Notes under the pieces: generated by a model
The model's database searches: none
Told to the model about the DNA's origin: nothing
What the model saw: the letters and a program-made list of their open reading frames with translations, nothing else
Sequence record: MT446404.1
DNA from: Escherichia virus TH30
Direction: 5' to 3' (one strand)
Length of the DNA: 51,754 bases
Program-made: the position numbers and the translations under genes
Shown here: positions 15,118 through 50,253 of the stretch, one piece after another
Numbering within the stretch: the first letter of the stretch is position 1
Layout of the letters: the number at the start of each line of letters is the position of its first letter

Positions 15118-15134
15118 ATAGCACTTTTTGTTAA
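15118..15134 (+). promoter_or_regulatory. 17-bp conserved motif ATAGCACTTTTTGTTAA, inverted relative to the minus-strand genes here
   Basis: Sits 54 nt upstream of capsid start with an adjacent hairpin. Confidence 0.4.
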
Positions 15135-15181
15135 GCGTGCAACAGCTTTTTATGTTAAGCGCTTATGTCGTTCTCTGGAAA

Positions 15182-15205
15182 TAAAAAAGGAGCCTTTCGG
15201 CTCCC
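15182..15205 (-). terminator. rho-independent terminator (minus strand)
   Basis: GGAGCC-tttc-GGCTCC hairpin preceded by A-run on plus strand. Confidence 0.65.
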
Positions 15206-15221
15206 TATTATGGTTCAGCTA

Positions 15222-15734
15222 TTAAGCTGCCGGACTTGCCGGAAGCTGGAATTGAGCTTGAGTAACCTGGATTTTGATAATGTCGAAGTTCTCATCATCA
15301 GTCTTTAGCCACTCGCCGGTGGTGGTGTAAACAGTGCCAATGCCAGTTGCCGCCACAGTACCCGAAGCGGTCAAGAATACCTGCTTATTGAACTCTTTGT
15401 TCACTTCAGGCAGGTCTTTAGCACACAGTACCCATGCGCGACCGTTGGTCAGTACGTTGATTGCGGAACCTTCTTCATAAACACCCGCCGGAGAGTATGC
15501 GTGAGACATGATTGCTACGCCCACCAGGTTCGGAGTTTCTGCCGAGATGGTGTCAGTTACGACTTTGTGACCATCAACAACCTTTTCAGTAGGGTCGAGG
15601 GCGACTACCACGCCAACCTTAATTTCTTTAGCCGCCGCACAAGCTCCATCAACGTTGTAGAGAGAGGTGTCAGCCAGCAGGCCTGCATATGCTTTTGAAC
15701 GGTTAACCGTATAAGATGCTTTGATTAGTGCCAT
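15222..15734 (-). CDS. head structural / decoration protein (170 aa)
   Basis: Position between scaffold and capsid genes, followed by terminator. Confidence 0.35.
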   Translation of the reverse strand: MALIKASYTVNRSKAYAGLLADTSLYNVDGACAAAKEIKVGVVVALDPTEKVVDGHKVVTDTISAETPNLVGVAIMSHAYSPAGVYEEGSAINVLTNGRAWVLCAKDLPEVNKEFNKQVFLTASGTVAATGIGTVYTTTGEWLKTDDENFDIIKIQVTQAQFQLPASPAA

Positions 15735-15787
15735 GATATTTTTCCTTTTTCACTTAGAGATTAAGCGGCCTTTCGACCGCCATTTTA

Positions 15788-16918
15788 TTACTTACGGAAG
15801 CGCGCCTGAGGATCAGGAATCGCGTCATCATCTTTGTCGCCTTGAGCGCCGTCAGCTTTATCGCCGTGCACTTTGATGCGTTGAGCAGCCATCTTATCAG
15901 AATCGCGAGCGATTTCATAAGACTGATTGATGTATGCGTCGGATTTTTCTTTCGCGTCAATACCGAGAACTTCGTCAATTACTGCCAGTTTGATAGCCTT
16001 CTCATCCAGGCCGTCGCACTTGATACCAAGGCCGGAAGCGAAAGTGAGAACAGCTCCCAGCGCGTCAGCTTTTTCTTTTGCTTCCGCTAGAGCCGCTTCG
16101 ATCTGGGCAGGAATGCCGTCAACCTTTGCTTTCAGCGCATCGCGCTCAGCTTGCAGGCCGTCAACTTTAGCACCAGCTTGCTCTGCTGCGGTTTGCAGCT
16201 TGCCGATGTGGTCAGCTACGTCTTTGGACACTTCCACTTCTGCTGAATCAATTTTAATTTTTACGGTCATGTTACTTTCCTCATTGGTTAATTGAACATG
16301 CTCATCATATTTAATTTCTTCTGAGCCGTCAAGGTTTAATCTGGCAATACCTGCGCGCCCGTGCTTTACCTTGGCAACGTGGTTAGGGACGATGTTCGTT
16401 TGCAGCACGTCAAACTCTTCCCACTCGTCGGTCATGACGGTTCCGTTAGGGAATTGCGCCTCCATCCCTTCCGCATCATCCTTGAAAACATACTCACCAG
16501 TATTGACATTTCCCCACCCTTCGCGGTGGATGTCATTAGTCTTGTAACCAACGGACAATTCTGCGGCGTCGCCACGCTTGGCGGATTCAATGGATTCCTT
16601 GTCGTGAATTACGATCGGACACTTCAAGCCGATTCCATCACGACGACCAGCGCCGGATAGTGAGCCAACAACAATCTTTCGTGCGTTGCTTGTGCTTACT
16701 TCCTGGTGACCTTCTACGATCGGCATACCGCGAAATAGCTCCATGGCCTCAGCCTTGAACACTTCGTTGGCTGGTCGGAACTCACGCTGCATTGTTCCAT
16801 CGGCACGCATATATTCCTGAATGCCGATTCGTGCAATGATTGGCTCATCGTGCATGAATCCGTTCGAGTCAAAGCGTGCTTTCAGTTGCACGCTATCGTA
16901 TCGTTGCTTAGTGGTCAT
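15788..16918 (-). CDS. scaffolding protein (possibly with prohead protease function, 376 aa)
   Basis: Ala/Glu/Lys-rich coiled-coil segment; upstream of capsid gene. Confidence 0.45.
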   Translation of the reverse strand: MTTKQRYDSVQLKARFDSNGFMHDEPIIARIGIQEYMRADGTMQREFRPANEVFKAEAMELFRGMPIVEGHQEVSTSNARKIVVGSLSGAGRRDGIGLKCPIVIHDKESIESAKRGDAAELSVGYKTNDIHREGWGNVNTGEYVFKDDAEGMEAQFPNGTVMTDEWEEFDVLQTNIVPNHVAKVKHGRAGIARLNLDGSEEIKYDEHVQLTNEESNMTVKIKIDSAEVEVSKDVADHIGKLQTAAEQAGAKVDGLQAERDALKAKVDGIPAQIEAALAEAKEKADALGAVLTFASGLGIKCDGLDEKAIKLAVIDEVLGIDAKEKSDAYINQSYEIARDSDKMAAQRIKVHGDKADGAQGDKDDDAIPDPQARFRK

Positions 16919-17397
16919 TTTTTACTCCCGTGATTTTTATGAAATTTATATACAGACTCCGCAACCTTTCTTGCAGAGATTGCGTCATCTTTTCTATCGT
17001 ATCTACCAAGGAATTTCTCCTTTTTGTCCACCCTTATTGAAGCAATCCATTTACTGGTTCTCTTACACCAGCTAACTCCAACAACTCCGCTTTTGTTTGA
17101 CTTGCTCATGGATACGTTTTTGCAATTCTCTTGTCTAGTTACGAGCCTTAGGTTTTCTATCCTGTTATCATCCCTAATATGGTTTATATGGTCAATCTCC
17201 ATTCCTTCAGGTATTTTACCATGGTGCATCTCCCATATTACCCTATGAGCCGGAGTTAGCCTACCCATAATCCTAACGTAAATATATCCATCCTCATCCT
17301 TCCAGCCAGCCACATCGCCAACTTTAACCCTTTTCGATGTCGGATTTTTCCAGATGAGATCTTTCTCTATATGATAAAAATAATCATTGAAATTCAT
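16915..17397 (-). CDS. HNH homing endonuclease (160 aa)
   Basis: EIDHINHIRDDNRIENLRLVTRQEN His-Asn-His motif; wedged between head genes with 4-nt overlaps. Confidence 0.85.
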   Translation of the reverse strand: MNFNDYFYHIEKDLIWKNPTSKRVKVGDVAGWKDEDGYIYVRIMGRLTPAHRVIWEMHHGKIPEGMEIDHINHIRDDNRIENLRLVTRQENCKNVSMSKSNKSGVVGVSWCKRTSKWIASIRVDKKEKFLGRYDRKDDAISARKVAESVYKFHKNHGSKK

Positions 17398-23272: not shown

Positions 23273-23329
23273 TTCTGCTTCCTCGTTCGTTTCGATGGGG
23301 TAACTATACAGCTACCCCGATTATGAGTT

Positions 23330-23346
23330 TTAACAAAAAGTGCTAT
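23330..23346 (-). promoter_or_regulatory. conserved 17-bp motif (minus-strand ATAGCACTTTTTGTTAA); upstream stop TAG embedded
   Basis: Followed on the minus strand by a hairpin with TATAGT and CATCGAAACGA before the next ATG. Confidence 0.55.
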
Positions 23347-23741
23347 CGCTTGTGATTTCGTGCATTCTTTTTCATTGCCGCGAAGGCGATAAAGCAGAAC
23401 ATCCCAGGCTCGGTGAATCGAAGTTTTCCATACTGGCGGCACATGCGGCGGAACTTACGCTTATCATTAAGGACGCCAGTTACGCGCTTCTCAGTTACAA
23501 CAAGGCGGCGCGGACCTTTTACTACCACGAAAGTGACTGCTGGGCCGCTTGCGAGATTCAGGTTAAACTTACTGCCTTTCTGGATGGCGTACCAAGTAAG
23601 GCCGTTATCCACATCAATAACATCAGCCACGTTGAGGTGACGGTTTGGCCTGCGTTTAGCTTCGTACACATGACCAACCTGAAAGTGATCTTCGAACAGA
23701 GGCGCTAACCCTGGATGTATTTTAACGCAACGTAATTTCAT
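23343..23741 (-). CDS. hypothetical basic protein (132 aa)
   Basis: ORF only. Confidence 0.4.
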   Translation of the reverse strand: MKLRCVKIHPGLAPLFEDHFQVGHVYEAKRRPNRHLNVADVIDVDNGLTWYAIQKGSKFNLNLASGPAVTFVVVKGPRRLVVTEKRVTGVLNDKRKFRRMCRQYGKLRFTEPGMFCFIAFAAMKKNARNHKR

Positions 23742-23940
23742 GGTTATTCCCCTTCGTTTTCGTCGAATTGTTGATTATTGATCTGAGTGCGAACCTCTTT
23801 GACCATCTCGGAGAACTCATAGGCTGTGCACTGCATAGGCTGAGTAGCCAGGAGTTGCTTAAGAATGACGGCTTGCTTATCTGACAGGTTGATAGTAATC
23901 ATTTTGCTTTCCTCTCGTTTGGTGTGAACTAACTATAACA

Positions 23941-23957
23941 AAACCCGCCGGAGCGGG
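23941..23957 (-). terminator. hairpin CCCGC-cgga-GCGGG with U-run, adjacent to conserved motif
   Basis: Read on minus strand. Confidence 0.45.
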
Positions 23958-23958
23958 T

Positions 23959-23975
23959 TTAGCAATTCGTGCTAT
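23959..23975 (-). promoter_or_regulatory. conserved 17-bp motif (ATAGCACGAATTGCTAA), dyad TAGCA/TGCTA
   Basis: Immediately after stop of 23976..24608. Confidence 0.55.
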
Positions 23976-25275: not shown

Positions 25276-25306
25276 TTTAACTTCCTTTCGTGTGGTTTAT
25301 GTGGGG

Positions 25307-25315
25307 ATTATACCA
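25307..25315 (-). promoter_or_regulatory. extended -10 TGGTATAAT inside a hairpin, downstream of conserved motif
   Basis: Plus-strand attatacca; about 35 nt upstream of ATG at 25275. Confidence 0.45.
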
Positions 25316-25333
25316 GTCAGGATGAATCCCCTT

Positions 25334-25350
25334 TTAACAAAGCGTGCTAT
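25334..25350 (-). promoter_or_regulatory. conserved 17-bp motif (ATAGCACGCTTTGTTAA), upstream stop TAG embedded
   Basis: Stop of 25347..26150 is the TAG of the motif. Confidence 0.55.
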
Positions 25351-26150
25351 TTGATATAAAACTGAGCCACTACGCCGCCATCAGGATTTACTATTGCGTA
25401 TGCGTCACCGGGCATTGCCTTGGCATTCATAACCTTACCAATTCTCTTTGCTTCCCATCGGCAATCGCCTTTTAATCCAGATACGAAAGCATCCTGCGTG
25501 ATGTAAATAAGTCTCGGACTACCGACAAAACTCTCACTGATTTCATACTCATACTCGCAACCATTGATAAATTCGTTGCCGTTAACATGGTAGCAAACTG
25601 CCACCTTGCGATCGCGTGCAGATTCGCATTCACCCACCGCCCATACGTGACGATTGCCATAACCGTAACCGCCGCTGCGTGGTTCCATTTTCGCGGTTGA
25701 CATCGTGATGCCATGGCTACCGATGAAACTTTCGCCAAAAGTGAACTTTCCGTTCTTCGTCAATTCATCTTCGACGCTGTAGGTGTCATCCTTAACGGTT
25801 TTCCCTGGGCCAGTCGCAAGCTCGCTTACGAACGCATCGACCGTGTTGTGGCACGGATCGCCATTGTACTTAGGAAAATCCTTGAGCAATTGCTCGTACG
25901 CTTCGTGCACCAGATTACCTACAACTTCTTTGATAGCCTGCTCAATATGCTCAGCGAGAATCGAAGGTGCAGAAATTTGATGTTTTTGAGTCGATTCTAA
26001 CGCCTTTAAACGCGCTTGTAACGACTCAATTTCTTGCTTATGCATCGCGTAGGATACCCACGCTCCATCGTCGCAGGCTTGCATTCCGACACCGTGAATG
26101 TTGACGCTGGTTGCTACTGATACAGGGATATAACGTCTGATGCTTTTCAT
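25347..26150 (-). CDS. hypothetical protein (267 aa), largest uncharacterised early protein
   Basis: ORF only; N-terminal coiled-coil-like segment. Confidence 0.5.
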   Translation of the reverse strand: MKSIRRYIPVSVATSVNIHGVGMQACDDGAWVSYAMHKQEIESLQARLKALESTQKHQISAPSILAEHIEQAIKEVVGNLVHEAYEQLLKDFPKYNGDPCHNTVDAFVSELATGPGKTVKDDTYSVEDELTKNGKFTFGESFIGSHGITMSTAKMEPRSGGYGYGNRHVWAVGECESARDRKVAVCYHVNGNEFINGCEYEYEISESFVGSPRLIYITQDAFVSGLKGDCRWEAKRIGKVMNAKAMPGDAYAIVNPDGGVVAQFYIK

Positions 26151-26218
26151 ATTTAATTCCTCAGTTGGTTTGTGTTCACTTGACAGGAGACACTATAGCT
26201 AATGTCTCCGAGCAAGTT

Positions 26219-26235
26219 TTAACAAAAAGTGCTAT
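26219..26235 (-). promoter_or_regulatory. conserved 17-bp motif, upstream stop TAG embedded
   Basis: Adjacent hairpin GGAGACA...TGTCTCC. Confidence 0.55.
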
Positions 26236-26450
26236 TTAATGACTCCGGCGCGAATTGCCATCTCAAGCGTGATGTACTGCTTAGCCGTCAGCGTTGAGTG
26301 ATAGGTGACTACTCCAGCCTTAATTGCTTTTACCAACTGATCCTGTGTGATGCGTGAGATGTTAATAATGCCGTATCCGCCACCAGTACGCAGAACCACA
26401 TCGCCGACCGCACAAAACTCAACGCCCTTGCTGTTAGTGTAGACTTGCAT
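26232..26450 (-). CDS. hypothetical protein (72 aa)
   Basis: ORF only. Confidence 0.4.
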   Translation of the reverse strand: MQVYTNSKGVEFCAVGDVVLRTGGGYGIINISRITQDQLVKAIKAGVVTYHSTLTAKQYITLEMAIRAGVIK

Positions 26451-26807: not shown

Positions 26808-27232
26808 AAGTAACCCTTCCCTACAGTTTCGCCAACTTCGCGTGATGCCTTTAATTTGTTCCAGAAATCGAACGGGCCGACTGGCTCCCACGCTTTCGGT
26901 TTTCCTGGCTCATTCCACCAACCTAGAACGCAGTCGCTACCGTACGCCGTTCCCATTGGTTTACCGTCGCTGTAGTGGTCCTTGAACACGCGGTCAAGCT
27001 CATCCCCACCAACCTTGATTGATTTGATTTCAAAGCCATAACTCTTCTTCATCACCAAATCATGATCATAAAAGAACCCGTCTACAACGATAGGGTAAGA
27101 ACCAGGATCGCGCGGACTTGTATCTTTCTCATGCAGCTTGCGATAGTTTGGATCGGCATAGATGTTTGGGTTAAGTAAACGAACTCTCATTTGTAATTCC
27201 TCTGATTGGTTGTTTTGCTTCAATAAGGCCAC
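26804..27232 (-). CDS. hypothetical protein (142 aa)
   Basis: ORF only. Confidence 0.4.
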   Translation of the reverse strand: MALLKQNNQSEELQMRVRLLNPNIYADPNYRKLHEKDTSPRDPGSYPIVVDGFFYDHDLVMKKSYGFEIKSIKVGGDELDRVFKDHYSDGKPMGTAYGSDCVLGWWNEPGKPKAWEPVGPFDFWNKLKASREVGETVGKGYL

Positions 27233-27257
27233 TATATCAAATGGCCTTGCGGAAGGT

Positions 27258-27274
27258 TTAACAAAAAGTGCTAT
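27258..27274 (-). promoter_or_regulatory. conserved 17-bp motif, upstream stop TAG embedded
   Basis: Position inferred from stop of 27271..27459. Confidence 0.5.
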
Positions 27275-27459: not shown

Positions 27460-27514
27460 TTCGTATCTCCCTTGTTGGTATGAAAGAAGTATACCAGTCA
27501 GGGAGAATATCGTT

Positions 27515-27531
27515 TTAGCAATTCGTGCTAT
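27515..27531 (-). promoter_or_regulatory. conserved 17-bp motif (ATAGCACGAATTGCTAA)
   Basis: Followed by CTGACTGGTATACT extended -10-like element. Confidence 0.5.
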
Positions 27532-28255: not shown

Positions 28256-28321
28256 AATTTACCCCTTGGTTGATTGTTTCACTTCAATGAGTGCACTATA
28301 GCAAATGCACTCACGTCAGTT

Positions 28322-28338
28322 TTAACAAAAAGTGCTAT
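28322..28338 (-). promoter_or_regulatory. conserved 17-bp motif, upstream stop TAG embedded
   Basis: Stop of 28335..28622 is the TAG of the motif. Confidence 0.55.
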
Positions 28339-29439: not shown

Positions 29440-29490
29440 TTCCTCTTTGTTGTCGATAGGGTAATCATAGCTGACTACCCGATTTATTGT

Positions 29491-35118: not shown

Positions 35119-35164
35119 TGTATATTCATCTCATCGAAACGAAACACACTAAAGGAAAATAATC

Positions 35165-39069: not shown

Positions 39070-39123
39070 GATTAAATCCTCTGATAGTGAGATGTAAATA
39101 TAGCGCCAATCGGCGCCACATGT

Positions 39124-39140
39124 TAGGCAAAAAGTGCTAT
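39124..39140 (-). promoter_or_regulatory. variant conserved motif (ATAGCACTTTTTGCCTA)
   Basis: Immediately after HNH gene stop. Confidence 0.4.
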
Positions 39141-39618: not shown

Positions 39619-39672
39619 CTAATCATCCTCTCGTTTCTATAAAACAATAATAGCGCCATATAGGCGCTATGT

Positions 39673-39689
39673 TTTAACAAAAAGTGCTA
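39673..39689 (-). promoter_or_regulatory. conserved 17-bp motif (ATAGCACTTTTTGTTAA)
   Basis: One nt after TGA stop of 39690..40832; followed by hairpin. Confidence 0.5.
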
Positions 39690-40832
39690 TCAAATATCAC
39701 TCATCTCTGGACGGTAAACGAATCGACCAACCTCACCGAACTCTTTTGAGTACACGATTACAGCTGCTTGGCGATACGATCTCCAACCACCACGGGCCGC
39801 ATATGCGTCTTTTGCTCCTAGTTGGCCGTGAACCTCATCAATCCCCAAAGTTCCTTCCGTGATCGTCTGATGGTGCCAATGGCCACTATGCGTGTAAATA
39901 TATTTGCTCGTACCAAACTCTTCGCGGAAGTCAGTAGCCATTGCCGCCAGTCGAGTATCTGCTTTCTTCATGGTGTGACCATGAGTGTACCCCAGCAATG
40001 TCTTACCCCACTTGGTACGGTGAAGAATCATAGGAGACGTATCAACCGTTACGCGCACCTCATCTTCAAAGTATGCCGCCATTGCAGCGCGGAGCCAAAT
40101 CATACCCGCCTGATCATGATTCCCTTCAATGATCTGGATTTCGACCTCTTCGTGCTTATCCAGCATTAGCGCCACCGCGCGGCGTACGGAACGGATTGCA
40201 ACGTGAACTAGCTTGGCGTATCGACTATCCTGATCCAGTACGTGACCGCTTGCAGGCGTCACTGCGTCCAGGCCATCAGAGTGAAGGAAGTCACCGCCGA
40301 TTAGCAGAACTGCTTTCTTAGCCTTCGGTGATACGCCTACGGAATAATCAAAGAAGTTTTTCAGCACTTTCTCTGAGATGTCGGTGCTGTAGTTCTCACC
40401 GCATTCATGCTTGTGGGCCATCGCGCCAATATGAAGATCGAATACAGGATAGAGCGCCAGGAGATTTTCATCATAGCTAGGCTCGCCAAGGATAGGCTGA
40501 GCCGCCGCGCGCGGGAGTTCGTCACAGAATGCTTCAATTGCAGCATCCATCATGGCGGCTAACTTTTCCTTGTCCTGATCGGTCTTAATCCAGCGGATTT
40601 TCTCGTTGCCTTCCGCGTCAATCATAGTTGATGTGGCCTTAACCATGAAGCCGTCAGGCACATATTTAGCAACTGCTTTATTGCCATGCCCGTGACCTTT
40701 ACGAGCAAGGTTACTTGAGCGCTGCTCAACTGTACGAATGTTCATCCCGTATTCTTGGGCGATTTGACGAAGTGTTTTACCAGCTTCGCGCTCAGCAATG
40801 AATTGTTCGTCACTAATCTTCTGCATAGCCAT
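39690..40832 (-). CDS. HTH-domain plus calcineurin-like metallophosphoesterase (380 aa)
   Basis: N-terminal HTH-like LRQIAQEYGMNIRTVEQR; GDFLHSD and GNHD metal-binding motifs. Confidence 0.55.
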   Translation of the reverse strand: MAMQKISDEQFIAEREAGKTLRQIAQEYGMNIRTVEQRSSNLARKGHGHGNKAVAKYVPDGFMVKATSTMIDAEGNEKIRWIKTDQDKEKLAAMMDAAIEAFCDELPRAAAQPILGEPSYDENLLALYPVFDLHIGAMAHKHECGENYSTDISEKVLKNFFDYSVGVSPKAKKAVLLIGGDFLHSDGLDAVTPASGHVLDQDSRYAKLVHVAIRSVRRAVALMLDKHEEVEIQIIEGNHDQAGMIWLRAAMAAYFEDEVRVTVDTSPMILHRTKWGKTLLGYTHGHTMKKADTRLAAMATDFREEFGTSKYIYTHSGHWHHQTITEGTLGIDEVHGQLGAKDAYAARGGWRSYRQAAVIVYSKEFGEVGRFVYRPEMSDI

Positions 40833-42116: not shown

Positions 42117-42173
42117 GGTGATTCCTCGTCTCGTTGGTATGAAAGAAGTATACCCGCTCGGCGGCGGGTATGT

Positions 42174-42190
42174 TTAGCAATTAGTGCTAT
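42174..42190 (-). promoter_or_regulatory. conserved 17-bp motif (ATAGCACTAATTGCTAA), upstream stop TAG embedded
   Basis: Followed by hairpin TACCCGC...GCGGGTA with TATACT. Confidence 0.55.
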
Positions 42191-42426
42191 TGTGCGAAAT
42201 CTTCAGGGCACTCGCGCTTATAGTCTTCCATATCTTTTCGTATTGCTTTAACCCATGTATTGATCGGCTGATCCTGCACCTCTTCGAATGACATATCCAG
42301 ATCTGAGAACGCCCAGGCATCACCCTTAAAACCAGCTTTCGTTAACACCTCACAAACGACAGCGCGAAATAAAAGATACTTACCTTTGTCGGTTAAATTG
42401 ATTTGTACACTGCTCATTTTAAACAC
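42187..42426 (-). CDS. hypothetical acidic protein (79 aa)
   Basis: ORF. Confidence 0.4.
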   Translation of the reverse strand: MFKMSSVQINLTDKGKYLLFRAVVCEVLTKAGFKGDAWAFSDLDMSFEEVQDQPINTWVKAIRKDMEDYKRECPEDFAQ

Positions 42427-43421: not shown

Positions 43422-43487
43422 TTTGATTTCCTTGGTTGGTTACTTCGTTTCGATGAGGTGATAATACACCACCTCACCGATTCGTCT

Positions 43488-43504
43488 TTAGCAATTCGTG
43501 CTAT
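43488..43504 (-). promoter_or_regulatory. conserved 17-bp motif; upstream stop is the TAA of the motif
   Basis: Followed by hairpin with TATTAT loop and CATCGAAACGAAG. Confidence 0.55.
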
Positions 43505-43916
43505 TCAGCATATCTGCAACGGCTTTCTTATATTCCTCCTGGCCGTATGCCACCGCCGCGAACCCGCCACGCTCTCGGACACGACGAAGGAACTCTTTCT
43601 GCTCCTTGCTGACTGGTGATGCCTTGCCTTTCCCGCTTTTATTGACTCGCTTCAATTCTATGGCCCCGAAAGGATATTTACCGAACGGACCGAGAAGGAA
43701 CACAAAGTCACTAACCCCCTTCAACAATCCGCTCTGAGCATCAACCAGCGCCGAATGCATAGTTTTCTTACCCTCATTAACTGTGTGCCAGAACAGGAGG
43801 TAAGAGTGATTTACATTAGTCCAGGTCACGCAATCGACCTGGTGCTTGTTCTCTGTCCATGTATCCGATTTGTCTGGAGTGTAATATTCCAGGTAGTCGC
43901 CTTTATCTGTAATCAT
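43488..43916 (-). CDS. VRR-NUC-like nuclease (142 aa)
   Basis: SDFVFLL...GAIELKRVNKSGK...SKEQKEFL pattern resembles PD-(D/E)xK VRR-NUC core. Confidence 0.45.
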   Translation of the reverse strand: MITDKGDYLEYYTPDKSDTWTENKHQVDCVTWTNVNHSYLLFWHTVNEGKKTMHSALVDAQSGLLKGVSDFVFLLGPFGKYPFGAIELKRVNKSGKGKASPVSKEQKEFLRRVRERGGFAAVAYGQEEYKKAVADMLNSTNC

Positions 43917-46015: not shown

Positions 46016-46078
46016 AGTATTAAATGCCTTTCATGTTCGTTCGATTGACGTTATAATAACAACCATCGAAACCAATGT

Positions 46079-46095
46079 TTAACAAAAAGTGCTAT
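46079..46095 (-). promoter_or_regulatory. conserved 17-bp motif upstream of helicase gene, in divergent region
   Basis: About 65 nt upstream of helicase ATG at 46015. Confidence 0.5.
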
Positions 46096-46107: not shown

Positions 46108-46581
46108 ATGAATGCAACTGATAAGCGTGCTCTTAACGGCAATAACGGAACTATCCGCACAGAAGATAAGAAGCAGCGTAAGCGACCGTCAGGTTACTAT
46201 GTTCTCAAGGATGAAGTAAAGGCCGGATTAAGAGCGCGACTTGATATTGTGTTTGAGTTCTACGGCAGCAAGGCGAATATGGCGAAGCAATTAAAGGTTA
46301 CTCGCCAGGCCGTTGAAGAATGGTTTAAACGTGGAATGATGTCGGCCCGTGGCGCTCAACTGGCGCACAACCGATACAAGCGAACTGGCGAAGGGTTCCG
46401 CGCTACATTCTGCCGACCGGATCTGCAATTCGACGGGAACGGAAAACCTCTGACTCTGAGGTGTAAAAAACGTCACATGCTTCGCGTCGTAACCGAGGCT
46501 GAACTAGCCACCAAGCCAGAATGCCGCTCATGGCGAAAAATCAAAGCAGCAAATGAAGCAGCACGAAAAGCTAAAGAATGA
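46108..46581 (+). CDS. basic HTH-domain DNA-binding protein (157 aa), candidate regulator
   Basis: HTH-like segment MAKQLKVTRQAVEEWFKRG. Confidence 0.5.
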   Translation: MNATDKRALNGNNGTIRTEDKKQRKRPSGYYVLKDEVKAGLRARLDIVFEFYGSKANMAKQLKVTRQAVEEWFKRGMMSARGAQLAHNRYKRTGEGFRATFCRPDLQFDGNGKPLTLRCKKRHMLRVVTEAELATKPECRSWRKIKAANEAARKAKE

Positions 46582-47578
46582 AAATCAAGGTTGTGCCATA
46601 ATTGGTGCAACCTTTTTTATTGGAGTAAAAACAGTGAACGAGCCGAATTACCAGAAAGAAGAAGTCCTGCCATACATGAAAGGATTATGGCGTGAGGCAT
46701 TGCAATCAATCTGTGGGTTGCAGTCCGTCGTATTCAATAAGAAGCACCAGCCATGCCCTTACTGCGGCGGCAAGGACCGTTTCCGTTGGACTGATGAACT
46801 GGACTCTCCTGGTGACGGCGGAGCTATCTGTAACGGATGCGGGAACGACAAGGGCGTTGGCTGGATGATGAAGCTGACTGGTGAGCCTTACAGTGAAGTG
46901 ATTAATATTCTCGGTCGATTCCTTGGGAAAGTTCCGCAGGATTACAAAGCCAAGGCTTACCGCAGGGCGTCACGCGTACCGGAAAAGGGATTAGGAAAGA
47001 TGGCAGATCATGAGTCATGTGTAGCTGTAATGGATCGCACGGAGAAGCGCGAGAACACCGATTTAAGCATGTATGAATGCTTAACCGAAGATTCATATGA
47101 CGTTGGCGTAAAAGTGCGTCAGAATGGTTCTGAAGAGCTAATACACGCACTACCTTGCTACATGGTTCATCCTGACGGGATTGATGAGGATATGTGTAAC
47201 GTCATGTTTGCTTATGATAATGGAGAATACACTTTCCTTGCGCGCGATTATTCTCGCGGCTCAGTTGTTAAGCTGGGGAGTGGCGAAGCGGATGCAGCCA
47301 TATATATGACAAGCGATCTTATTGATGGCTACAGAGTGAAGATGGCTACCAGTCAGGAAGTATGGGTGACTTTCTCCCCTGAGAATCTTGAGATCGTTGC
47401 TTATCGGTATCGTGGCGAAAGGGAATTGCGTGTAGCGTGTCCGGCAGATGATTTGAGAACGCTTTACATGGCTGACGAGCGAGATTTAAAAGTGGTTGTG
47501 CCGAACGGCGGAAACTTCAAAATGGGGCTTGAGCGAAAGCTATATACACCGCAGGATCTGATAGATAAGTATTCATAA
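46553..47578 (+). CDS. DNA primase with zinc-binding domain (341 aa; true start may be GTG 46634)
   Basis: CPYCGGKDRFRW...CNGCGN zinc motif; adjacent to helicase. Confidence 0.6.
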   Translation: MKQHEKLKNENQGCAIIGATFFIGVKTVNEPNYQKEEVLPYMKGLWREALQSICGLQSVVFNKKHQPCPYCGGKDRFRWTDELDSPGDGGAICNGCGNDKGVGWMMKLTGEPYSEVINILGRFLGKVPQDYKAKAYRRASRVPEKGLGKMADHESCVAVMDRTEKRENTDLSMYECLTEDSYDVGVKVRQNGSEELIHALPCYMVHPDGIDEDMCNVMFAYDNGEYTFLARDYSRGSVVKLGSGEADAAIYMTSDLIDGYRVKMATSQEVWVTFSPENLEIVAYRYRGERELRVACPADDLRTLYMADERDLKVVVPNGGNFKMGLERKLYTPQDLIDKYS

Positions 47579-47606: not shown

Positions 47607-47632
47607 TGCCTGACGTAATGCTACAATGTGCT

Positions 47633-47649
47633 TTAGCAATTAGTGCTAT
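47633..47649. promoter_or_regulatory. conserved 17-bp motif in flipped orientation upstream of a plus-strand gene
   Basis: TTAGCAATTAGTGCTAT, 25 nt upstream of ATG 47674. Confidence 0.45.
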
Positions 47650-47673: not shown

Positions 47674-48993
47674 ATGGCAACTTATGATGAAGGAACCGCA
47701 TCACTAGCTGCGGACGGTACTGTAACTGGTGTTGGTACGTCATGGAGAAAGCCGCTTACACTTATTCGTGTTGGCGCGACCATGATATTCAATACATCCC
47801 CAATAAGTATCGTCACGATAGCTGAGGTTTTAAGTGATACAAGTATTAGGGCTTTCAATGAAAAAGGGTTTACTGCTCCGGCTGGAACGCAGTACTTCAT
47901 CCTGGCTCACGATGGAATTACCGTGGAGGGGCTAGCGCAAAACGTCGCTGAAACTCTTAGGTATTATCAATCTCAAAATTGGGTTCTTGCCGATGAGAAT
48001 GGAAATGTAAGGATAGAAGATGGCGGTACTGGTGCAAGCGACGCGGCTGGCGCGCGCAGTAAGTTAGGTTTAGGCTCGGTGGCAACGATGAGCAATGTAC
48101 CATTAGCAAATGGTGGTACAGGTGCTACGGATGCTGCTGGTGCACGTAATAACCTGGAGCTTGGTCAGCTTGCAACGGAAGATGTTGCTAGCATAAACAA
48201 CGGTGGGACTGGTGCAACCAGCGCAGAAGGTGCACGTAATAACCTGGAGCTTGGATCTGCTTCCACATTGAATGTCGGGGGTAACAGTGGAAACGCTATG
48301 AGGGTTGGTGATTTCGGATTAGGAAGGCCAGACGGTGCTATGGTTTTTAATACCACATCTCAAGATGTGCTTCTTGCTGGTTTGGATCAATATGGATTAA
48401 CTGTATTCAGGAACAACCAACAAATTGCAGCGCCGTGGGATATCTGGAACTATTCATCAAACCTATTCTTTAGGGCTGGCGATACTTACAGTATGTTGAG
48501 CATCCCCTTTGAACAATCAGGTAAGGTTAAGGTTTTCGGCGGGGCTGCTGGATCTGGATGGAAGACAGGTCGCACACTACTCGATAGCACAATCACAACT
48601 GTTGACTCGAACGGATTTATCAAACAAGCGTCACCGATTGTCAAGGTTTTTGGTGATGGTAAGTATGAGGTGAACGAAGAATCAGAAGGGGCTATAGTTG
48701 AACGAGTTTCTGTAGGTGTTTACAGGATTTCAGGCGTACTAGGCCTTAATTCAGATGCAGCGTGGGGGGGTGTTAACGGCGGATTTGAGATACCACTTGA
48801 TATTAACAAGCAAGCAAGGGTGTGGATTGACTACAAGGTTGAGCCTGAGGGATCTATAATCCTTAAAACGTATCACCGAACTTACGAATCATCTCCTTCA
48901 TTTGCAACAAACAAGATTGATGGTTTTAATAATGGAGATCCGATAGATATACCATCTGACGCATTCATTTCTGTTCGTGTCAATATGCCATAA
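47674..48993 (+). CDS. tail fibre-like protein with three GGTGA(S/T)..AGAR..L(G/E)LG repeats (439 aa)
   Basis: Repeats between about 48018 and 48290 including an exact 26-bp duplication. Confidence 0.55.
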   Translation: MATYDEGTASLAADGTVTGVGTSWRKPLTLIRVGATMIFNTSPISIVTIAEVLSDTSIRAFNEKGFTAPAGTQYFILAHDGITVEGLAQNVAETLRYYQSQNWVLADENGNVRIEDGGTGASDAAGARSKLGLGSVATMSNVPLANGGTGATDAAGARNNLELGQLATEDVASINNGGTGATSAEGARNNLELGSASTLNVGGNSGNAMRVGDFGLGRPDGAMVFNTTSQDVLLAGLDQYGLTVFRNNQQIAAPWDIWNYSSNLFFRAGDTYSMLSIPFEQSGKVKVFGGAAGSGWKTGRTLLDSTITTVDSNGFIKQASPIVKVFGDGKYEVNEESEGAIVERVSVGVYRISGVLGLNSDAAWGGVNGGFEIPLDINKQARVWIDYKVEPEGSIILKTYHRTYESSPSFATNKIDGFNNGDPIDIPSDAFISVRVNMP

Positions 48994-49020
48994 AAAAAGC
49001 CCCGAAAGGGGCTTTATCTT
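48992..49020. terminator. bidirectional terminator
   Basis: A7, GCCCC-gaaa-GGGGC, T-run. Confidence 0.7.
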
Positions 49021-49025
49021 TTACA

Positions 49026-49478
49026 TCAGAACGGGATGTCATCATCGAACTGCATAGACTGATTAGGTTGCTGCTTAGGCTGCTGGTGCTTTTGCTGAGG
49101 CTGCTGCCGTTGTTGTTGCTGGCCTTGGCCCTGCTGTGCTGGCTCACGCTGACTGAATTGCAACTGAGGTCGGATCATTTCGGCGGTCACATACACAGTG
49201 CCGTCATTTCCCTGGCGCGACGCTAAGTGAAGCGTGTCGGCGGAAATTGATACAACCTTACCTTCCTGGAACGCCTCATCATACCACTGCATGACGTTTT
49301 CTTTTGCAAAGAACGTAGCGCGGTAGTTACTGTAAACCGTTTCATCCTCGCCCTGCTGATTGCGAATCTTCATACGTTCTGACAGTTCGACGGCGTACAT
49401 TTTCCAGCGACCATTATTGTTACTGCCTTCTTTGGTGAATGGTGCTTTACGGATCTGACCAGTGATTACGTGTGGCAT
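49026..49478 (-). CDS. ssb: single-stranded DNA-binding protein (150 aa)
   Basis: Gln/Pro-rich linker and acidic C-terminal tail DDDIPF. Confidence 0.85.
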   Translation of the reverse strand: MPHVITGQIRKAPFTKEGSNNNGRWKMYAVELSERMKIRNQQGEDETVYSNYRATFFAKENVMQWYDEAFQEGKVVSISADTLHLASRQGNDGTVYVTAEMIRPQLQFSQREPAQQGQGQQQQRQQPQQKHQQPKQQPNQSMQFDDDIPF

Positions 49479-49516
49479 TTTATTTTCCTTGTTGGATGGG
49501 GCCGAAGCCCCGTTAA

Positions 49517-50173
49517 TTAGAATTGCTCGATGGATTCAGATTGTACAGGCTCGGACGGTGCATTTGCAACCTTGTCTTCAACCTTTTGCACATCTGCCTT
49601 TTTCGCTGGCTGGAATCCGCGAGCGCTACCGATACTCAATTCAGCCTTACGCTTCTGCAAGTGGTCTTCTGCAATCTTCCATTCCGCCGCGCTGAGTGAA
49701 CCTTTCGCGCTCTTATAGATCACCTGGAGGGCTTCCAGTTTTTCGCAGTTGGTGATCAGTTTTTTGTAGTCTGCCGCCGTGCGCTTCGCGATTTCTGCGT
49801 CGTCATCGCTCTGAGTGATTCCAAGCGCTGCGCATAATGCATAACGGCGACCGTATGAGGTTGTAGAGCCGTAAGCCTGAGCGCTAATCTTCTCGATCGG
49901 CATGTTGTACTGGAACGCAAGCCACTCGCCGGAACTATGAAGGATGAGTGTTTCAATGTGCATTACCTTCTCGGTTGACGTGTCCAGGTTTGACTGGATA
50001 ACCATAAGGTCATGCTCTTTTAGCGCTGGCTCTACGGCCTCCAGAACGTCCGTCAGGTTTGAATAATGGCTTTTCAGGTGAGTGTTGAAGCCTGATTTTT
50101 TTGCGATGGCAAACTGCTTTTTAGCTGCAATTAGAGCGGCTGAAACATTCGAAAACTTCTCTGATGTACGCAT
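49517..50173 (-). CDS. erf: Erf-family single-strand annealing protein (218 aa)
   Basis: N-terminal pattern LKSHYSNLTDVLEAVEPALKEHDL resembles Erf core. Confidence 0.55.
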   Translation of the reverse strand: MRTSEKFSNVSAALIAAKKQFAIAKKSGFNTHLKSHYSNLTDVLEAVEPALKEHDLMVIQSNLDTSTEKVMHIETLILHSSGEWLAFQYNMPIEKISAQAYGSTTSYGRRYALCAALGITQSDDDAEIAKRTAADYKKLITNCEKLEALQVIYKSAKGSLSAAEWKIAEDHLQKRKAELSIGSARGFQPAKKADVQKVEDKVANAPSEPVQSESIEQF

Positions 50174-50236
50174 TATATATACCTTTGTTTACTTCGTTTG
50201 ATTTACGGTGATTATAGCAAATCACCGCATTCTTGT

Positions 50237-50253
50237 TTAGCAAAAAGTGCTAC
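50237..50253 (-). promoter_or_regulatory. conserved 17-bp motif (variant GTAGCAC...), upstream stop TAG embedded
   Basis: Stop of exonuclease gene is the TAG of the motif. Confidence 0.5.

What the first reader, a model, noticed from the sequence alone, without database searches (positions are those of the whole stretch)
15118..50253. A 17-bp partially palindromic motif at about 20 gene boundaries, usually containing the upstream stop codon
ATAGCAC-n3-TTG(C/T)TAA (half-sites TAGCA and TGCTA) occurs at 23330, 23959, 25334, 26219, 27258, 27515, 28322, 29491, 39124, 39673, 42174, 43488, 46079, 50237 on the minus strand and 31227, 31633, 32810, 33180, 35083 on the plus strand. It almost always sits on the coding strand of the local block, and the TAG or TAA of the preceding gene is frequently part of it. 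Such regular punctuation suggests a phage-specific promoter element, a regulator operator or an RNA processing or termination signal.
Basis: seen in the sequence. Interest (0 to 1): 0.85.

Follow-up and report, generated by a model that had tools for sequence, protein, structure and literature searches.

The report
Marbox promoters of a T1-like phage
The repeated 17-bp motif is the upstream half of about twenty promoters of a T1-like phage, and it is letter-for-letter the binding site ("marbox") of the host's MarA/SoxS/Rob stress regulators, which suggests that the phage borrows host stress activators to switch on its early and DNA-metabolism genes.

Summary
TAGCAC-N3-TTGYTA occurs 20 times where 0.01 is expected, almost always on the local coding strand, and its TAG or TAA often serves as the upstream gene's stop codon. 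The window is a T1-like phage (Drexlerviridae). The repeat is already published as a 21-nt "direct repeat" of unknown function (phage TLS, 2024).

What is new here is the anatomy. The motif is one part of a fixed ~75-bp module:
- a 20-bp box;
- an 18-bp spacer, usually a hairpin or terminator;
- a sigma70-type -10 hexamer, with G at -14;
- a C/A start site and an A-rich leader, then SD and ATG.

There is no -35 hexamer. The box matches the enterobacterial marbox at every specified position. Three window copies equal the published consensus gcactaattgctaaa. Orientation and the 18-bp distance to -10 match the E. coli micF class II promoter. The phage encodes no AraC/MarA-like protein. Its Cro-like regulator has a hypervariable recognition helix, whereas the box is invariant across subfamilies.

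Best reading: these are class II marbox promoters activated by host MarA/SoxS/Rob/RamA. The promoter-module part is close to certain. Which protein reads the box is inferred. The main caveat is that the same module occurs in T1-like phages reported on Pseudomonas and Vibrio.

The parts
1423..1473 (+). Promoter module. Box ACAGCACGAATAGCTAAAAC (1423-1442), 18 bp, -10 TAGAAT (1461-1466), predicted +1 at 1473. Upstream of ORF 1498..1836.
   Evidence: (PWM 82nd percentile of ChIP sites)
23296..23346 (-). Promoter module. Box ATAGCACTTTTTGTTAAAAC (23327-23346), 18 bp containing a hairpin that encloses -10, -10 TATAGT (23303-23308), +1 at 23296 (cA-TCGAAACGAA). The box TAG is the stop of ORF 23343..23741.
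23925..23975 (-). Promoter module. Box ATAGCACGAATTGCTAAACC, a terminator-like hairpin CCCGCtccgGCGGG plus T-run in the spacer, -10 TATAGT (23932-23937), +1 at 23925.
   Evidence: (97th percentile)
25300..25350 (-). Promoter module. Box ATAGCACGCTTTGTTAAAAG, TGg-TATAAT extended -10 (25307-25312), +1 at 25300. The box TAG is the stop of ORF 25347..26150.
26185..26235 (-). Promoter module. Box ATAGCACTTTTTGTTAAAAC, hairpin GGAGACA/TGTCTCC around -10 TATAGT (26192-26197). The box TAG is the stop of ORF 26232..26450.
27224..27274 (-). Promoter module. Box ATAGCACTTTTTGTTAAACC, hairpin AAGGCCA/TGGCCTT around TGa-TATAGT (27231-27236), +1 at 27224. Nearly identical modules occur in T1 (3535), TLS (5136) and KP36 (7253).
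27481..27531 (-). Promoter module. Box ATAGCACGAATTGCTAAAAC, TGg-TATACT (27488-27493), +1 at 27481.
   Evidence: (97th percentile)
28288..28338 (-). Promoter module. Box ATAGCACTTTTTGTTAAAAC, hairpin GAGTGCA/TGCACTC around TGc-TATAGT (28295-28300), +1 at 28288. The box TAG is the stop of ORF 28335..28622.
29457..29507 (-). Promoter module. Box ATAGCACGAATTGCTAAACA, hairpin GGGTA/TACCC around -10 TATGAT (29464-29469), +1 at 29457. The box TAG is the stop of ORF 29504..30055.
31227..31278 (+). Promoter module, first of the plus-strand block. Box ATAGCACTTTTTGCTAATGA with a weak 3' element (AAT), 19-bp gap, -10 TATTAT (31266-31271), +1 at 31278 (cA-TCGAAACGAG).
   Evidence: (39th percentile)
31633..31685 (+). 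Promoter module. Box ATAGCACGATTTGCTAATGA with a weak 3' element, 20-bp gap, TGc-TAAGAT (31673-31678).
   Evidence: (32nd percentile)
32810..32860 (+). Promoter module. Box ATAGCACTTTTTGTTAAAAG, terminator-like hairpin AGCCC..GGGCT plus TTTTG in the spacer, TGc-TATTAT (32848-32853), +1 at 32860.
33180..33230 (+). Promoter module. Box ATAGCACGAATTGCTAAACC, -10 TATAGT (33218-33223), +1 at 33230. The TAA at the end of the box is the stop of ORF 32891..33196.
   Evidence: (97th percentile)
35083..35133 (+). Promoter module. Box ATAGCACTAATTGCTAAAGC, whose 15-mer equals the published consensus marbox. Terminator-like hairpin AGCCCttcgGGGCT plus TTT, -10 TATATT (35121-35126), +1 at 35133. The box TAG is the stop of ORF 34403..35086.
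   Evidence: (maximum PWM score)
39090..39140 (-). Promoter module with a degenerate box, ATAGCACTTTTTGCCTAACA (3' AAA element damaged). -10 TATATT (39097-39102). It serves a small gene and the lysis cassette. The same variant is conserved in T1 (42510) and Rtp (40395).
   Evidence: (33rd percentile)
39640..39690 (-). Promoter module. Box ATAGCACTTTTTGTTAAAAC, hairpin ATAGCGCC/GGCGCTAT ending in the -10 TATTAT (39647-39652), followed by T-rich sequence (terminator-like). +1 at 39640.
42140..42190 (-). Promoter module. Box ATAGCACTAATTGCTAAACA (15-mer equals the consensus marbox), hairpin TACCCGC/GCGGGTA ending in the -10 TATACT (42147-42152), +1 at 42140. The box TAG is the stop of ORF 42187..42426.
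43454..43504 (-). Promoter module. Box ATAGCACGAATTGCTAAAGA, long hairpin around -10 TATTAT (43461-43466; MFE -21 kcal/mol), +1 at 43454. The TAA of the box is the stop of ORF 43488..43916.
46046..46095 (-). Promoter module for the 700-aa helicase gene. Box ATAGCACTTTTTGTTAAACA, 17-bp gap, TGt-TATTAT (46053-46058), +1 at 46046. It is divergent from, and overlaps at -10, the likely promoter of regulator gene 46108..46581.
50204..50253 (-). Promoter module. Box GTAGCACTTTTTGCTAAACA, 17-bp gap, TGc-TATAAT (50211-50216), +1 at 50204. The box TAG is the stop of ORF 50250..51290.
   Evidence: (98th percentile)
15118..15137 (+). Orphan box ATAGCACTTTTTGTTAAGCG, antisense to the capsid-region genes, with no -10 at 18 bp. 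It has TTGTTA-17 bp-TATGTT instead. Its position is conserved in T1, TLS, Vc1 and Motto.
47630..47649 (-). Orphan box ATAGCACTAATTGCTAAAGC (perfect consensus marbox) with no -10. It is antisense, between genes 46553..47578 and 47674..48993, next to a plus-strand terminator. It is conserved in T1 (34902) and Rtp (33762).
5200..5219 (-). Box-like sequence ATCGCACGAAAGGCTAAACA overlapping the RBS and ATG of the 1110-aa tail gene 1865..5197, with no -10. It is conserved in T1, TLS and Rtp. Whether it belongs to the system is uncertain.

Best explanation
The 17-bp motif is the core of a 20-bp marbox, ATAGCAC-(T/G)WW-TTGYTAAA(A/C)n. This box forms the upstream element of about 20 class II activator-dependent sigma70 promoters that drive the early and DNA-metabolism genes of this T1-like phage.

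Each promoter has this layout:
- the box spans -50 to -31, in forward orientation;
- there is no -35 hexamer;
- an 18-bp spacer follows;
- the -10 hexamer is TATAGT, TATTAT or TATAAT, with G at -14;
- transcription is predicted to start at a conserved C(-1)/A(+1);
- an A-rich leader follows, about 25-30 nt before the start codon.

The box is most likely bound by a monomeric two-HTH activator of the host MarA/SoxS/Rob/RamA family. That protein would replace the missing -35 contact and recruit RNA polymerase, as at E. coli micF.

Shown here: the sequence, its geometry, its conservation across subfamilies, the absence of a phage AraC-type protein, and the identity with experimentally bound host sites.

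Inferred: The stop codons inside the box are a by-product of tight packing. Genes run up to a box that offers TAG and TAA in two frames.
For: 1. Enrichment. There are 20 exact copies against 0.01 expected.

2. Fixed geometry. A -10-like hexamer lies 22 bp after TTGYTA, which is 18 bp after the 20-bp box, in 19 of 21 window sites. In five T1-like genomes the gap is 17-18 bp in 65 of 92 sites, and CATAAT sits at that position in many of the rest.

3. Profile of 69 sites. G at -14 in 54. T-12, A-11, T-10 and T-7 are conserved. C at -1 in 46 and A at +1 in 60. No -35.

4. Marbox identity.
- The box matches gcannwwntgnnaaa (PMC12052159) at all specified positions.
- Its degenerate positions vary within the same classes as the consensus: position 10 is W (33 A, 36 T) and position 14 is Y (42 C, 27 T).
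- The published E. coli consensus marbox gcactaattgctaaa (PMC5684230) equals the boxes at 35084, 42175 and 47634.
- A PWM built only from 87 Salmonella MarA/SoxS/Rob/RamA ChIP-seq sites has that same consensus. It scores 16 of 22 window boxes above the 75th percentile of real sites.
- Boxes in T1 and Rtp equal the strongest ChIP site, GCACAAATTGCTAAA.

5. Geometry matches micF. E. coli micF reads ACAGCACTGAATGTCAAAAC, then 18 bp, then TAGAAT, then 7 nt to the TSS. The RamA class II site at micF is centred near -41 and reads CACT-7X-AAA. Class II is defined as a forward box overlapping -35, and such promoters lack a -35 hexamer.

6. Specificity. Exact marbox hits number 14-20 in T1, TLS, Rtp, KP36 and the window, against about 1 expected. 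Lambda has 1 and T7 has 0.

7. No phage AraC/MarA protein. tblastn gives only noise. Pfam finds nothing in 20 ORFs.

8. Positions -44/-40, -50/-34 and -51/-33 are conserved but not palindromic.

9. The phage Cro-like regulator is only 47-62% identical between lineages, and its recognition helix is its most variable segment, while the box is invariant.
Against: - No transcript ends have been mapped for any Drexlerviridae, so the start sites are predictions.
- No binding or genetic data link MarA, SoxS or Rob to T1-like phages.
- MarA and SoxS are scarce without stress, and Rob is largely sequestered under standard growth conditions. Yet T1-like phages grow fast in plain broth.
- The same module is present in Pseudomonas phage Motto and Vibrio phage Vc1. 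Motto's growth on P. aeruginosa is experimentally reported. MarA/SoxS/Rob are described as enterobacterial regulators. This argues either for a phage-encoded reader or for boxes that are dispensable in some hosts.
- The phage boxes are far more uniform than host marboxes. Positions 3 and 11 are invariant although the consensus leaves them free, which could point to a more specific reader.
- Three boxes (15118, 47630, 5200) have no promoter attached.
Confidence: 0.6

Rival explanations
1. The box is read by a phage-encoded protein, not a host one. One candidate is the conserved Cro/YdaS-like regulator (46108..46581), which in TLS is transcribed from one of that genome's few canonical sigma70 promoters. 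Another candidate is an unrecognised small early protein. Bound at about -42, it would activate the roughly 20 promoters as a delayed-early class, like lambda cI at OR2/PRM or Mu Mor. Alternatively it would shut them off, acting as an operator or 'stoperator'.
For: - The regulator is conserved in all T1-like phages.
- In TLS its gene has one of only three consensus sigma70 promoters.
- The box is partly palindromic, TAGCA/TGCTA, with 88-93% complementarity at four position pairs.
- Its centre near -42 is also the position of dimeric class II activators.
- The module persists in phages reported on Pseudomonas and Vibrio.
- The phage boxes are more uniform than host marboxes.
Against: - Three highly conserved position pairs are non-palindromic, and half the sites carry TTGTTA, which breaks the dyad.
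- The regulator's putative recognition helix is hypervariable (3.5, 3.0 and 2.7 bits at residues 66, 70 and 73), yet the box is identical across lineages whose regulators are only 47-62% identical.
- The HTH match is below the Pfam threshold.
- An unrelated protein would have to share the exact 15-bp optimum of the MarA family by coincidence.
- No AraC-type protein is encoded.
Confidence: 0.22
2. No dedicated factor is involved. The box is an UP-element-like or surrogate -35 sequence contacted directly by RNA polymerase (alpha-CTD or sigma). It boosts extended -10 promoters in any gamma-proteobacterial host. This is the 'UP enhancer' idea of the TLS paper.
For: - The flanks are A/T-rich (AAATA..TTTTTGTTAAAA) and lie at -51 to -31.
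- G at -14 in 78% of sites suggests that the core promoter can work with weak upstream help.
- This would explain function in Pseudomonas and Vibrio hosts.
- It was proposed in PMC11447400.
Against: - G-47, C-46, C-44 and G-38 are invariant. That is not what minor-groove A-tract recognition by alpha-CTD would select (Estrem/Gourse UP consensus, from memory).
- TTGYTA lies 22 bp from -10, which is 5 bp out of register for sigma region 4.
- This reading does not explain the exact identity with the marbox consensus.
Confidence: 0.08
3. The signal acts in RNA. On read-through transcripts the box folds as a small hairpin (UAGCA/UGCUA, with G-U when Y is T). Together with the downstream hairpin it marks processing, termination or translational-stop sites at gene ends.
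For: - The box lies on the coding strand and contains the upstream stop codon.
- The C/T alternation keeps G-U pairing.
- Strong hairpins, some annotated as terminators in the T1 record, lie immediately downstream.
Against: - A 5-bp stem with a 5-nt loop is marginal.
- The conserved A at box position 1 and the conserved 3' AAA lie outside any such stem.
- The fixed 18-bp distance to a -10 hexamer and a C/A start is a DNA-level promoter feature.
- No Rfam family matches.
- The downstream hairpins differ in sequence and register and do not pair with the box.
Confidence: 0.05

Closest known systems
Class II marbox promoters of the E. coli/Salmonella mar-sox-rob regulon (e.g. micF, lpxC P2, lpxL P1, rfaY P1)
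   Same: - The same 15-20 bp asymmetric box; some copies are identical to the published consensus and to ChIP-bound sites.
- Forward orientation, overlapping the -35 position, centred near -41.
- 18 bp from the box to the -10 hexamer, as at micF.
- A sigma70-type -10 and no -35 hexamer.

   Different: - They are located in a virulent phage genome.
- About 20 near-consensus copies occur in 30 kb, whereas host sites are scattered and degenerate.
- The spacer is occupied by a hairpin or terminator.
- The box abuts or contains the upstream stop codon.
- Binding and activation by MarA, SoxS or Rob have not been tested.
21-nt 'direct repeats' (DR1-DR18) of phage TLS, also noted in T1, Rtp and Rogue1 (PMC11447400)
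   Same: It is the same element: aaATAGCACnnnTTGnTAAAA, in the direction of transcription, about 76 nt upstream of start codons, with TTT and GAA sub-types.
   Different: That paper left the function open (stoperator, enhancer site or UP element). It did not report the fixed -10 hexamer, the start-site consensus, the hairpin-filled spacer or the identity with the marbox.
Phage promoters that depend on a phage-coded activator bound near -42 (lambda PRM with cI at OR2; Mu middle and late promoters with Mor or C) - from memory
   Same: A -10 hexamer with a poor or absent -35, and a protein site centred near -42 that overlaps the -35 position.
   Different: Those sites are dyad-symmetric and read by phage dimers. 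Here the site is asymmetric and matches a host monomer's site, and the only phage HTH candidate varies where it should be constant.
Mycobacteriophage L5 stoperators
   Same: Many copies of an asymmetric site, oriented with transcription, in short intergenic gaps (comparison made).
   Different: Stoperators are bound by the prophage repressor of a temperate phage and block elongation. This phage is of a virulent type with no such repressor, and the sites sit at a fixed promoter position rather than anywhere within transcripts.

Membership tests
Class II marbox (MarA/SoxS/Rob/RamA-dependent) promoter | A 15-20 bp asymmetric marbox sequence (gcannwwntgnnaaa / AYnGCACnnWnnRYYAAAYn) | tested here: met
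   - 16 exact matches to gcannwwntgnnaaa in the window against about 1 expected.
- Three boxes equal the published consensus gcactaattgctaaa.
- A PWM built from 87 ChIP sites places 16 of 22 boxes above the 75th percentile.
Class II marbox (MarA/SoxS/Rob/RamA-dependent) promoter | Box in forward orientation relative to the transcribed gene | tested here: met
   20 of 22 boxes read GCA..AAA on the coding strand of the downstream gene.
Class II marbox (MarA/SoxS/Rob/RamA-dependent) promoter | Box overlaps the -35 position (centre -36 to -55), at the same distance from -10 as in verified examples | tested here: met
   - The box spans -50 to -31 relative to the predicted start.
- The gap to the -10 hexamer is 18 bp in 58 of 92 sites and 17 bp in 7.
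- micF has 18 bp.
- Caveat: the start sites are predicted, not mapped.
Class II marbox (MarA/SoxS/Rob/RamA-dependent) promoter | A sigma70-type -10 element and no recognisable -35 hexamer | tested here: met
   The TAnnnT hexamer, G at -14 and the C/A start are conserved, and there is no information at -35 to -30 beyond the box. The same property is reported for Salmonella class II promoters.
Class II marbox (MarA/SoxS/Rob/RamA-dependent) promoter | Bound by MarA, SoxS, Rob or RamA, with transcription increased by them | not testable with these tools
   This needs EMSA or footprinting, reporter fusions, and infection of marA/soxS/rob mutants.
Operator of a dimeric phage HTH regulator (Cro/cI type) | Dyad-symmetric site whose conserved positions are mirrored | tested here: not met
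   Pairs -44/-40 (C/T), -50/-34 (A/A) and -51/-33 (A/A) are conserved with 0-7% complementarity. Pair -47/-37 is complementary in only 59% of sites.
Operator of a dimeric phage HTH regulator (Cro/cI type) | Recognition helix and operator conserved together across relatives | tested here: not met
   The box is invariant across five lineages, while residues 66, 70 and 73 of the regulator's HTH are its most variable positions.
UP element | A/T-rich tract at -38 to -59 with no requirement for specific G/C bases | tested here: not met
   G-47, C-46, C-44 and G-38 are invariant. The UP consensus is recalled from memory.
Sigma54 (-24/-12) promoter | TGGCAC-N5-TTGCW with an invariant GG and fixed spacing | tested here: not met
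   The box has AG instead of GG and 3 nt instead of 5 between the halves. A sigma70 -10 hexamer follows at a fixed distance. The sigma54 consensus is recalled from memory.
Intrinsic terminator | G+C-rich hairpin followed directly by a U-tract | tested here: inconclusive
   - The box itself does not meet the definition.
- In 22 of 69 modules a GC hairpin in the spacer ends at -11 and is followed by the T-rich -10 region.
- Several of these are annotated as terminators in the T1 record.
- 41 of 69 hairpins have no U-tract.

The most novel reading that the evidence does not exclude
T1-like phages have wired their whole early and middle transcription programme into the host mar/sox/rob stress regulon. 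About 20 consensus marboxes per genome would make phage gene expression depend on, and be boosted by, MarA, SoxS, Rob or RamA activity.

Two consequences would follow. Antibiotic, oxidative or bile stress would make cells better hosts. So would the mar or ramA up-mutations common in multidrug-resistant clinical isolates. In addition, hundreds of replicating phage genomes could act as a sink that titrates these regulators away from host defence genes.
Probability: 0.4. Interest if true: 0.85.

Novelty: new member of a known kind. Interest (0 to 1): 0.68.

Why it matters
T1-like phages are classic, abundant phages and are widely used in therapy. Yet their promoters are essentially unknown. The TLS re-annotation found only three sigma70 promoters and left this repeat unexplained.

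Reading the repeat as a class II marbox promoter supplies the missing promoter set and names a concrete host factor. It also gives cheap tests: reporter fusions, infection of marA/soxS/rob mutants, and induction with salicylate, paraquat, dipyridyl or bile.

If it holds, a virulent phage family would be coupled to the same regulators that drive intrinsic multidrug resistance (AcrAB-TolC up, OmpF down). That bears directly on phage-antibiotic synergy. It also bears on whether mar or ramA-overexpressing resistant strains are more permissive to these phages. TLS even uses the mar-regulated TolC as its receptor.

The modules are also compact, well-defined, activator-responsive promoter-plus-terminator parts that could be useful in engineering.

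Tried and rejected
- **TTGYTA as a normal -35.** Rejected, because the spacer to the -10 hexamer is 22 bp rather than 17±1.
- **Sigma54 promoter.** The resemblance TGGCAC-N5-TTGC is superficial. The box has AG instead of GG and the wrong spacing.
- **A phage-encoded MarA/AraC-like activator.** tblastn with MarA, SoxS and Rob sequences (recalled from memory) gave only noise, best E = 1. Pfam scans of 20 ORFs found no HTH_18 or AraC domain.
- **39690..40832 as a sigma-like protein.** Only a sub-threshold HTH_23 match, E = 0.047.
- **Known RNA families.** No Rfam hits in the window.
- **Transcript-end mapping for Drexlerviridae.** None found in the library.
- **Any paper linking marboxes to phage promoters, or other reports of ATAGCAC in T1-like phages.** Only the TLS paper.
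- **A host-range natural experiment (Vc1, Motto).** It did not separate the hypotheses. The module is retained, but whether those hosts have a marbox-reading protein could not be established.
- **A single fixed hairpin register.** It fits only about a third of sites. The hairpins are real but heterogeneous.
- **Orphan antisense boxes as class I (reverse-orientation) marboxes for the opposite-strand genes.** Rejected by inspection, because there is no room for a core promoter before the start codons.

Full report
**1. The observation**

The pattern TAGCACNNNTTGYTA has 20 exact matches in the 51,754-bp window. Dinucleotide-preserving shuffles give 0.01. Relaxed searches add a variant at 39125(-) and one at 1424(+).

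Twenty of 22 copies point in the direction of the downstream gene. The stop-codon claim also holds:
- In 10-11 sites the TAG of the motif is the stop codon of the upstream ORF.
- In two sites the stop is the TAA at motif positions 14-16.
- In six more sites a stop lies 3-5 nt upstream.
- The next start codon follows 70-84 nt after the motif.

**2. What genome this is, and what is already known**

The window is a T1-like siphovirus (Drexlerviridae). It is about 85% identical at the DNA level to several Escherichia phages, and its regulator gene is 89% identical to that of phage Rtp.

The repeat is not new as an observation. The 2024 re-annotation of phage TLS (PMC11447400) describes a 21-nt direct repeat, aaATAGCACnnnTTGnTAAAA. 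According to that paper:
- it has 21 copies;
- it is oriented with transcription;
- it lies about 76 nt upstream of start codons;
- it has TTT, GAA and AAA sub-types;
- it is also seen in T1, Rtp and Rogue1.

The authors found only three consensus sigma70 promoters in TLS. They left the repeat's function open, as stoperator-like, enhancer-binding or UP-element-like. I found no transcript-end mapping for any Drexlerviridae and no other paper that mentions the box.

**3. Anatomy: the motif is one part of a fixed module**

Extending each site shows a -10-like hexamer (TATAGT, TATTAT, TATAAT, TATACT and similar) 22 bp after TTGYTA in 19 of 21 window sites. That spacing is 5 bp too long for TTGYTA to serve as a -35 hexamer.

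I fetched T1, TLS, Rtp and Klebsiella phage KP36, which represent four Drexlerviridae lineages. I found 92 boxes in the five genomes. The hexamer lies exactly 18 bp after the 20-bp box in 58 of them and 17 bp in 7. Many of the remainder have CATAAT at that position.

A position profile of 69 sites shows:
- near-invariant AATAGCAC at -51 to -44;
- W at -42 and -41;
- TTG at -40 to -38;
- Y at -37, and TAAA at -36 to -33;
- G at -14 in 54 of 69 sites (the key base of an extended -10);
- T-12, A-11, T-10 and T-7;
- C at -1 in 46 sites and A at +1 in 60 sites;
- an A-rich leader, often ATCGAAACGAA;
- no information at the -35 hexamer position beyond the box itself.

This is the signature of a sigma70 promoter that lacks a -35 and carries a protein site centred near -41.

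**4. Identity of the box**

The box matches the enterobacterial marbox, the asymmetric site of the monomeric two-HTH activators MarA, SoxS, Rob and RamA. I first recalled the consensus from memory and then checked it four ways.

(a) PMC12052159 defines the marbox as 5'-gcannwwntgnnaaa-3', non-palindromic and oriented. It defines class II promoters as those with a forward box overlapping the -35 hexamer, centred between -36 and -55. The phage box satisfies every specified position.

(b) In E. coli MG1655, the micF class II promoter reads ACAGCACTGAATGTCAAAAC, then 18 bp, then TAGAAT, then 7 nt to the annotated first base of MicF. The marRAB marbox is ATGCCACGTTTTGCTAAATC. The phage module has the same box, the same orientation and the same 18-bp gap. 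The RamA cryo-EM study places the class II micF site at about -41, reading CACT-7X-AAA.

(c) The E. coli MarA ChIP-seq paper states the consensus marbox as gcactaattgctaaa (PMC5684230). This is letter-for-letter the box at 35084, 42175 and 47634.

- Its consensus is again GCACTAATTGCTAAA.
- Sixteen of 22 window boxes score above the 75th percentile of genuine bound sites.
- Each T1-like genome has 6-10 sites above the 90th percentile, against 0-0.3 in shuffles.
- Lambda and T7 have none.

Exact hits to the published pattern number 14-20 per T1-like genome against about 1 expected. Lambda has 1 and T7 has 0. Where the phage box is degenerate, it varies within the same IUPAC class as the consensus: position 10 is A or T and never G or C, and position 14 is C or T and never a purine. 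The Salmonella study also reports that class II promoters have a sigma70 -10 but no recognisable -35, as seen here.

**5. Who reads the box?**

The phage encodes no recognisable AraC/MarA-type protein:
- tblastn with MarA, SoxS and Rob gives only noise.
- Pfam finds no HTH_18 or AraC domain in 20 ORFs.

The one conserved phage regulator (46108..46581, the counterpart of T1 gp23) has a sub-threshold Cro/YdaS-type HTH.

The first test is symmetry. The box is not a true dyad. Four position pairs are 88-93% complementary and one is 59%. But the pairs -44/-40 (C/T), -50/-34 (A/A) and -51/-33 (A/A) are strongly conserved with 0-7% complementarity.

The second test is co-conservation. Across 100 homologues, the putative recognition-helix positions are the most variable in the protein, at 3.5, 3.0 and 2.7 bits for residues 66, 70 and 73. 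The framework residues are fixed. Meanwhile the box is identical in lineages whose regulators are only 47-62% identical.

A host protein with a conserved DNA-binding domain fits better. Rob binds marboxes with the highest affinity of the family and needs no upstream inducer, although much of it is sequestered under standard conditions. MarA and SoxS act in complex with RNA polymerase.

**6. The main caveat**

The regulator search turned up two T1-like phages with non-enterobacterial host labels: Vibrio phage Vc1 and Pseudomonas phage Motto. Both carry the same boxes and the same full module, with 9 and 16 sites within one mismatch of the 20-bp marbox consensus, and both are 45% G+C.

Motto's growth on P. 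aeruginosa clinical isolates is experimentally reported in one paper. [quoted passage not shown]

If those hosts lack a marbox-reading protein, one of two things must be true. Either a phage-encoded reader exists, or the extended -10 core suffices there. I could not resolve this. It is the main reason the host-factor step carries only moderate confidence.

**7. Other parts of the module**

The 18-bp spacer and the start region are rich in secondary structure:
- Mean MFE for -30 to +11 is -10.9 kcal/mol, against -4.9 for shuffles.
- 47 of 69 sites have z < -2.
- In 41 modules the stem encloses the -10 hexamer and the 3' arm ends at about -1.
- In 22 modules a GC-rich hairpin ends at -11, so the T-rich -10 region doubles as a U-tract.

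Several hairpins of the second kind are annotated as rho-independent terminators in the T1 record. Stem sequences differ between sites while pairing is kept, for example AAGGCCA/TGGCCTT, GAGTGCA/TGCACTC and GGAGACA/TGTCTCC. A single fixed register fits only about a third of sites: 21 of 68 have at least 7 of 9 pairs, against 7.5 expected and a maximum of 14 in 500 shuffles.

The simplest reading is a compact terminator or insulator nested inside the next promoter, but this was not tested. No Rfam family matches the window. The stop codons inside the box are best explained by packing. The box offers TAG and TAA in two frames, and upstream ORFs run up to it.

**8. Distribution and exceptions**

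The modules serve three groups of genes:
- the small early genes at 23-30 kb on the minus strand;
- the early genes at 31-35 kb on the plus strand;
- the DNA-metabolism genes at 39-50 kb.

The structural genes at 2-22 kb have none. The box ahead of the lysis cassette (39121-39140) has a damaged 3' AAA element, and the same variant is conserved in T1 and Rtp, which suggests tuned strength.

Three copies have no -10 hexamer: 15118(+), 47630(-) and a box-like sequence over the RBS of the tail gene at 5200-5219(-). All three are conserved in relatives and remain unexplained.

**9. Verdict**

The best-supported mechanism is a set of class II marbox promoters that recruit sigma70 RNA polymerase through a host MarA/SoxS/Rob/RamA-type activator. 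My confidence by step is:
- about 0.9 that the motif is the upstream element of this promoter module;
- about 0.9 that it is sequence- and geometry-identical to a class II marbox;
- about 0.6 that a host MarA-family protein is the functional reader.

I found no publication making this connection.

Noticed in passing
window 23296-50253 (spacers of the modules), e.g. 27237-27254, 28301-28318, 42153-42170; also T1 (L004) 38973-39001, 39998-40024, 41980-42007: The 18-bp spacer between the box and -10 almost always forms a hairpin. There are two forms. One is a stem enclosing the -10 whose 3' arm ends at -1. The other is a GC hairpin ending at -11, so that the T-rich -10 doubles as a terminator U-tract. 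Stems covary between sites. The T1 record annotates some as rho-independent terminators. Their function is untested; they could act as insulators, stabilise 3' ends or act at the DNA level.
   Followed up: partly
window, predicted +1 positions (e.g. 23296, 32860, 33230, 35133, 43454): A conserved leader begins exactly at the predicted start: A-TCGAAACGAA in about half of the modules, and ATTGAAG...CAATCAGAGG in the hairpin-type modules. It is conserved across T1, TLS, Rtp, KP36, Vc1 and Motto. Its role is unknown; it might affect initial transcription, translation or stability.
   Followed up: partly
window 15118-15137 (+) and 47630-47649 (-): Two orphan boxes lie antisense to the local genes and have no -10 at 18 bp. 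The first has TTGTTA-17 bp-TATGTT and sits between two minus-strand terminators in the capsid region. The second is a perfect consensus marbox next to a plus-strand terminator. Both positions are conserved in T1, TLS or Rtp, and in Vc1 and Motto.
   Followed up: no
window 5200-5219 (-): A box-like sequence, ATCGCACGAAAGGCTAAACA, overlaps the Shine-Dalgarno sequence and ATG of the 1110-aa tail (J-like) gene. The same arrangement is conserved in T1 (25021), TLS (24908) and Rtp (23313). It may be a regulatory site on a late gene, or a coincidence of a conserved RBS.
   Followed up: no
window 39121-39140 (-): The box ahead of the small gene and the lysis cassette has a damaged 3' element (TTGCCTAAC instead of TTGCTAAA; PWM 33rd percentile). 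The same variant occurs at the equivalent place in T1 (42510) and Rtp (40395), which suggests deliberately weaker or later expression.
   Followed up: partly
window 46016-46107: The -10 of the helicase marbox promoter (TATTAT, 46053-46058, minus strand) overlaps a TATAAT on the plus strand. That TATAAT is the likely -10 of the promoter for the divergent regulator gene 46108..46581. In TLS the equivalent regulator promoter (P57) is one of only three consensus sigma70 promoters. The two promoters should compete for RNA polymerase.
   Followed up: partly
window 46108-46581 (+): The conserved 'transcriptional regulator' has invariant N-terminal (DKRxxNGNNGxxR) and C-terminal (GFRAxFCRPDLxFDxNGK..RC) segments, but its HTH recognition helix is hypervariable. 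Its real target and role are unknown.
   Followed up: partly
L130 (Vibrio phage Vc1), L131 (Pseudomonas phage Motto); 20 'Campylobacter phage' records: T1-like phages with about 45% G+C, enteric-type Shine-Dalgarno sequences and the full marbox module are deposited with Vibrio, Pseudomonas and Campylobacter host labels. Either the host ranges are unexpectedly broad or some labels are wrong.
   Followed up: partly
L063-L065 (IMGVR_UViG_2974611538_000001, 41.8 kb): A 41.8-kb viral contig, shorter than typical T1-like genomes, carries 7 exact boxes. I did not check whether it is a T1-like fragment or a different phage type.
   Followed up: no
window 39142-39618 (-) and 40836-41321 (-): Two paralogous HNH_3 endonucleases with a weak AP2-like DNA-binding domain flank the 380-aa gene 39690..40832. 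They are probably homing endonucleases.
   Followed up: no
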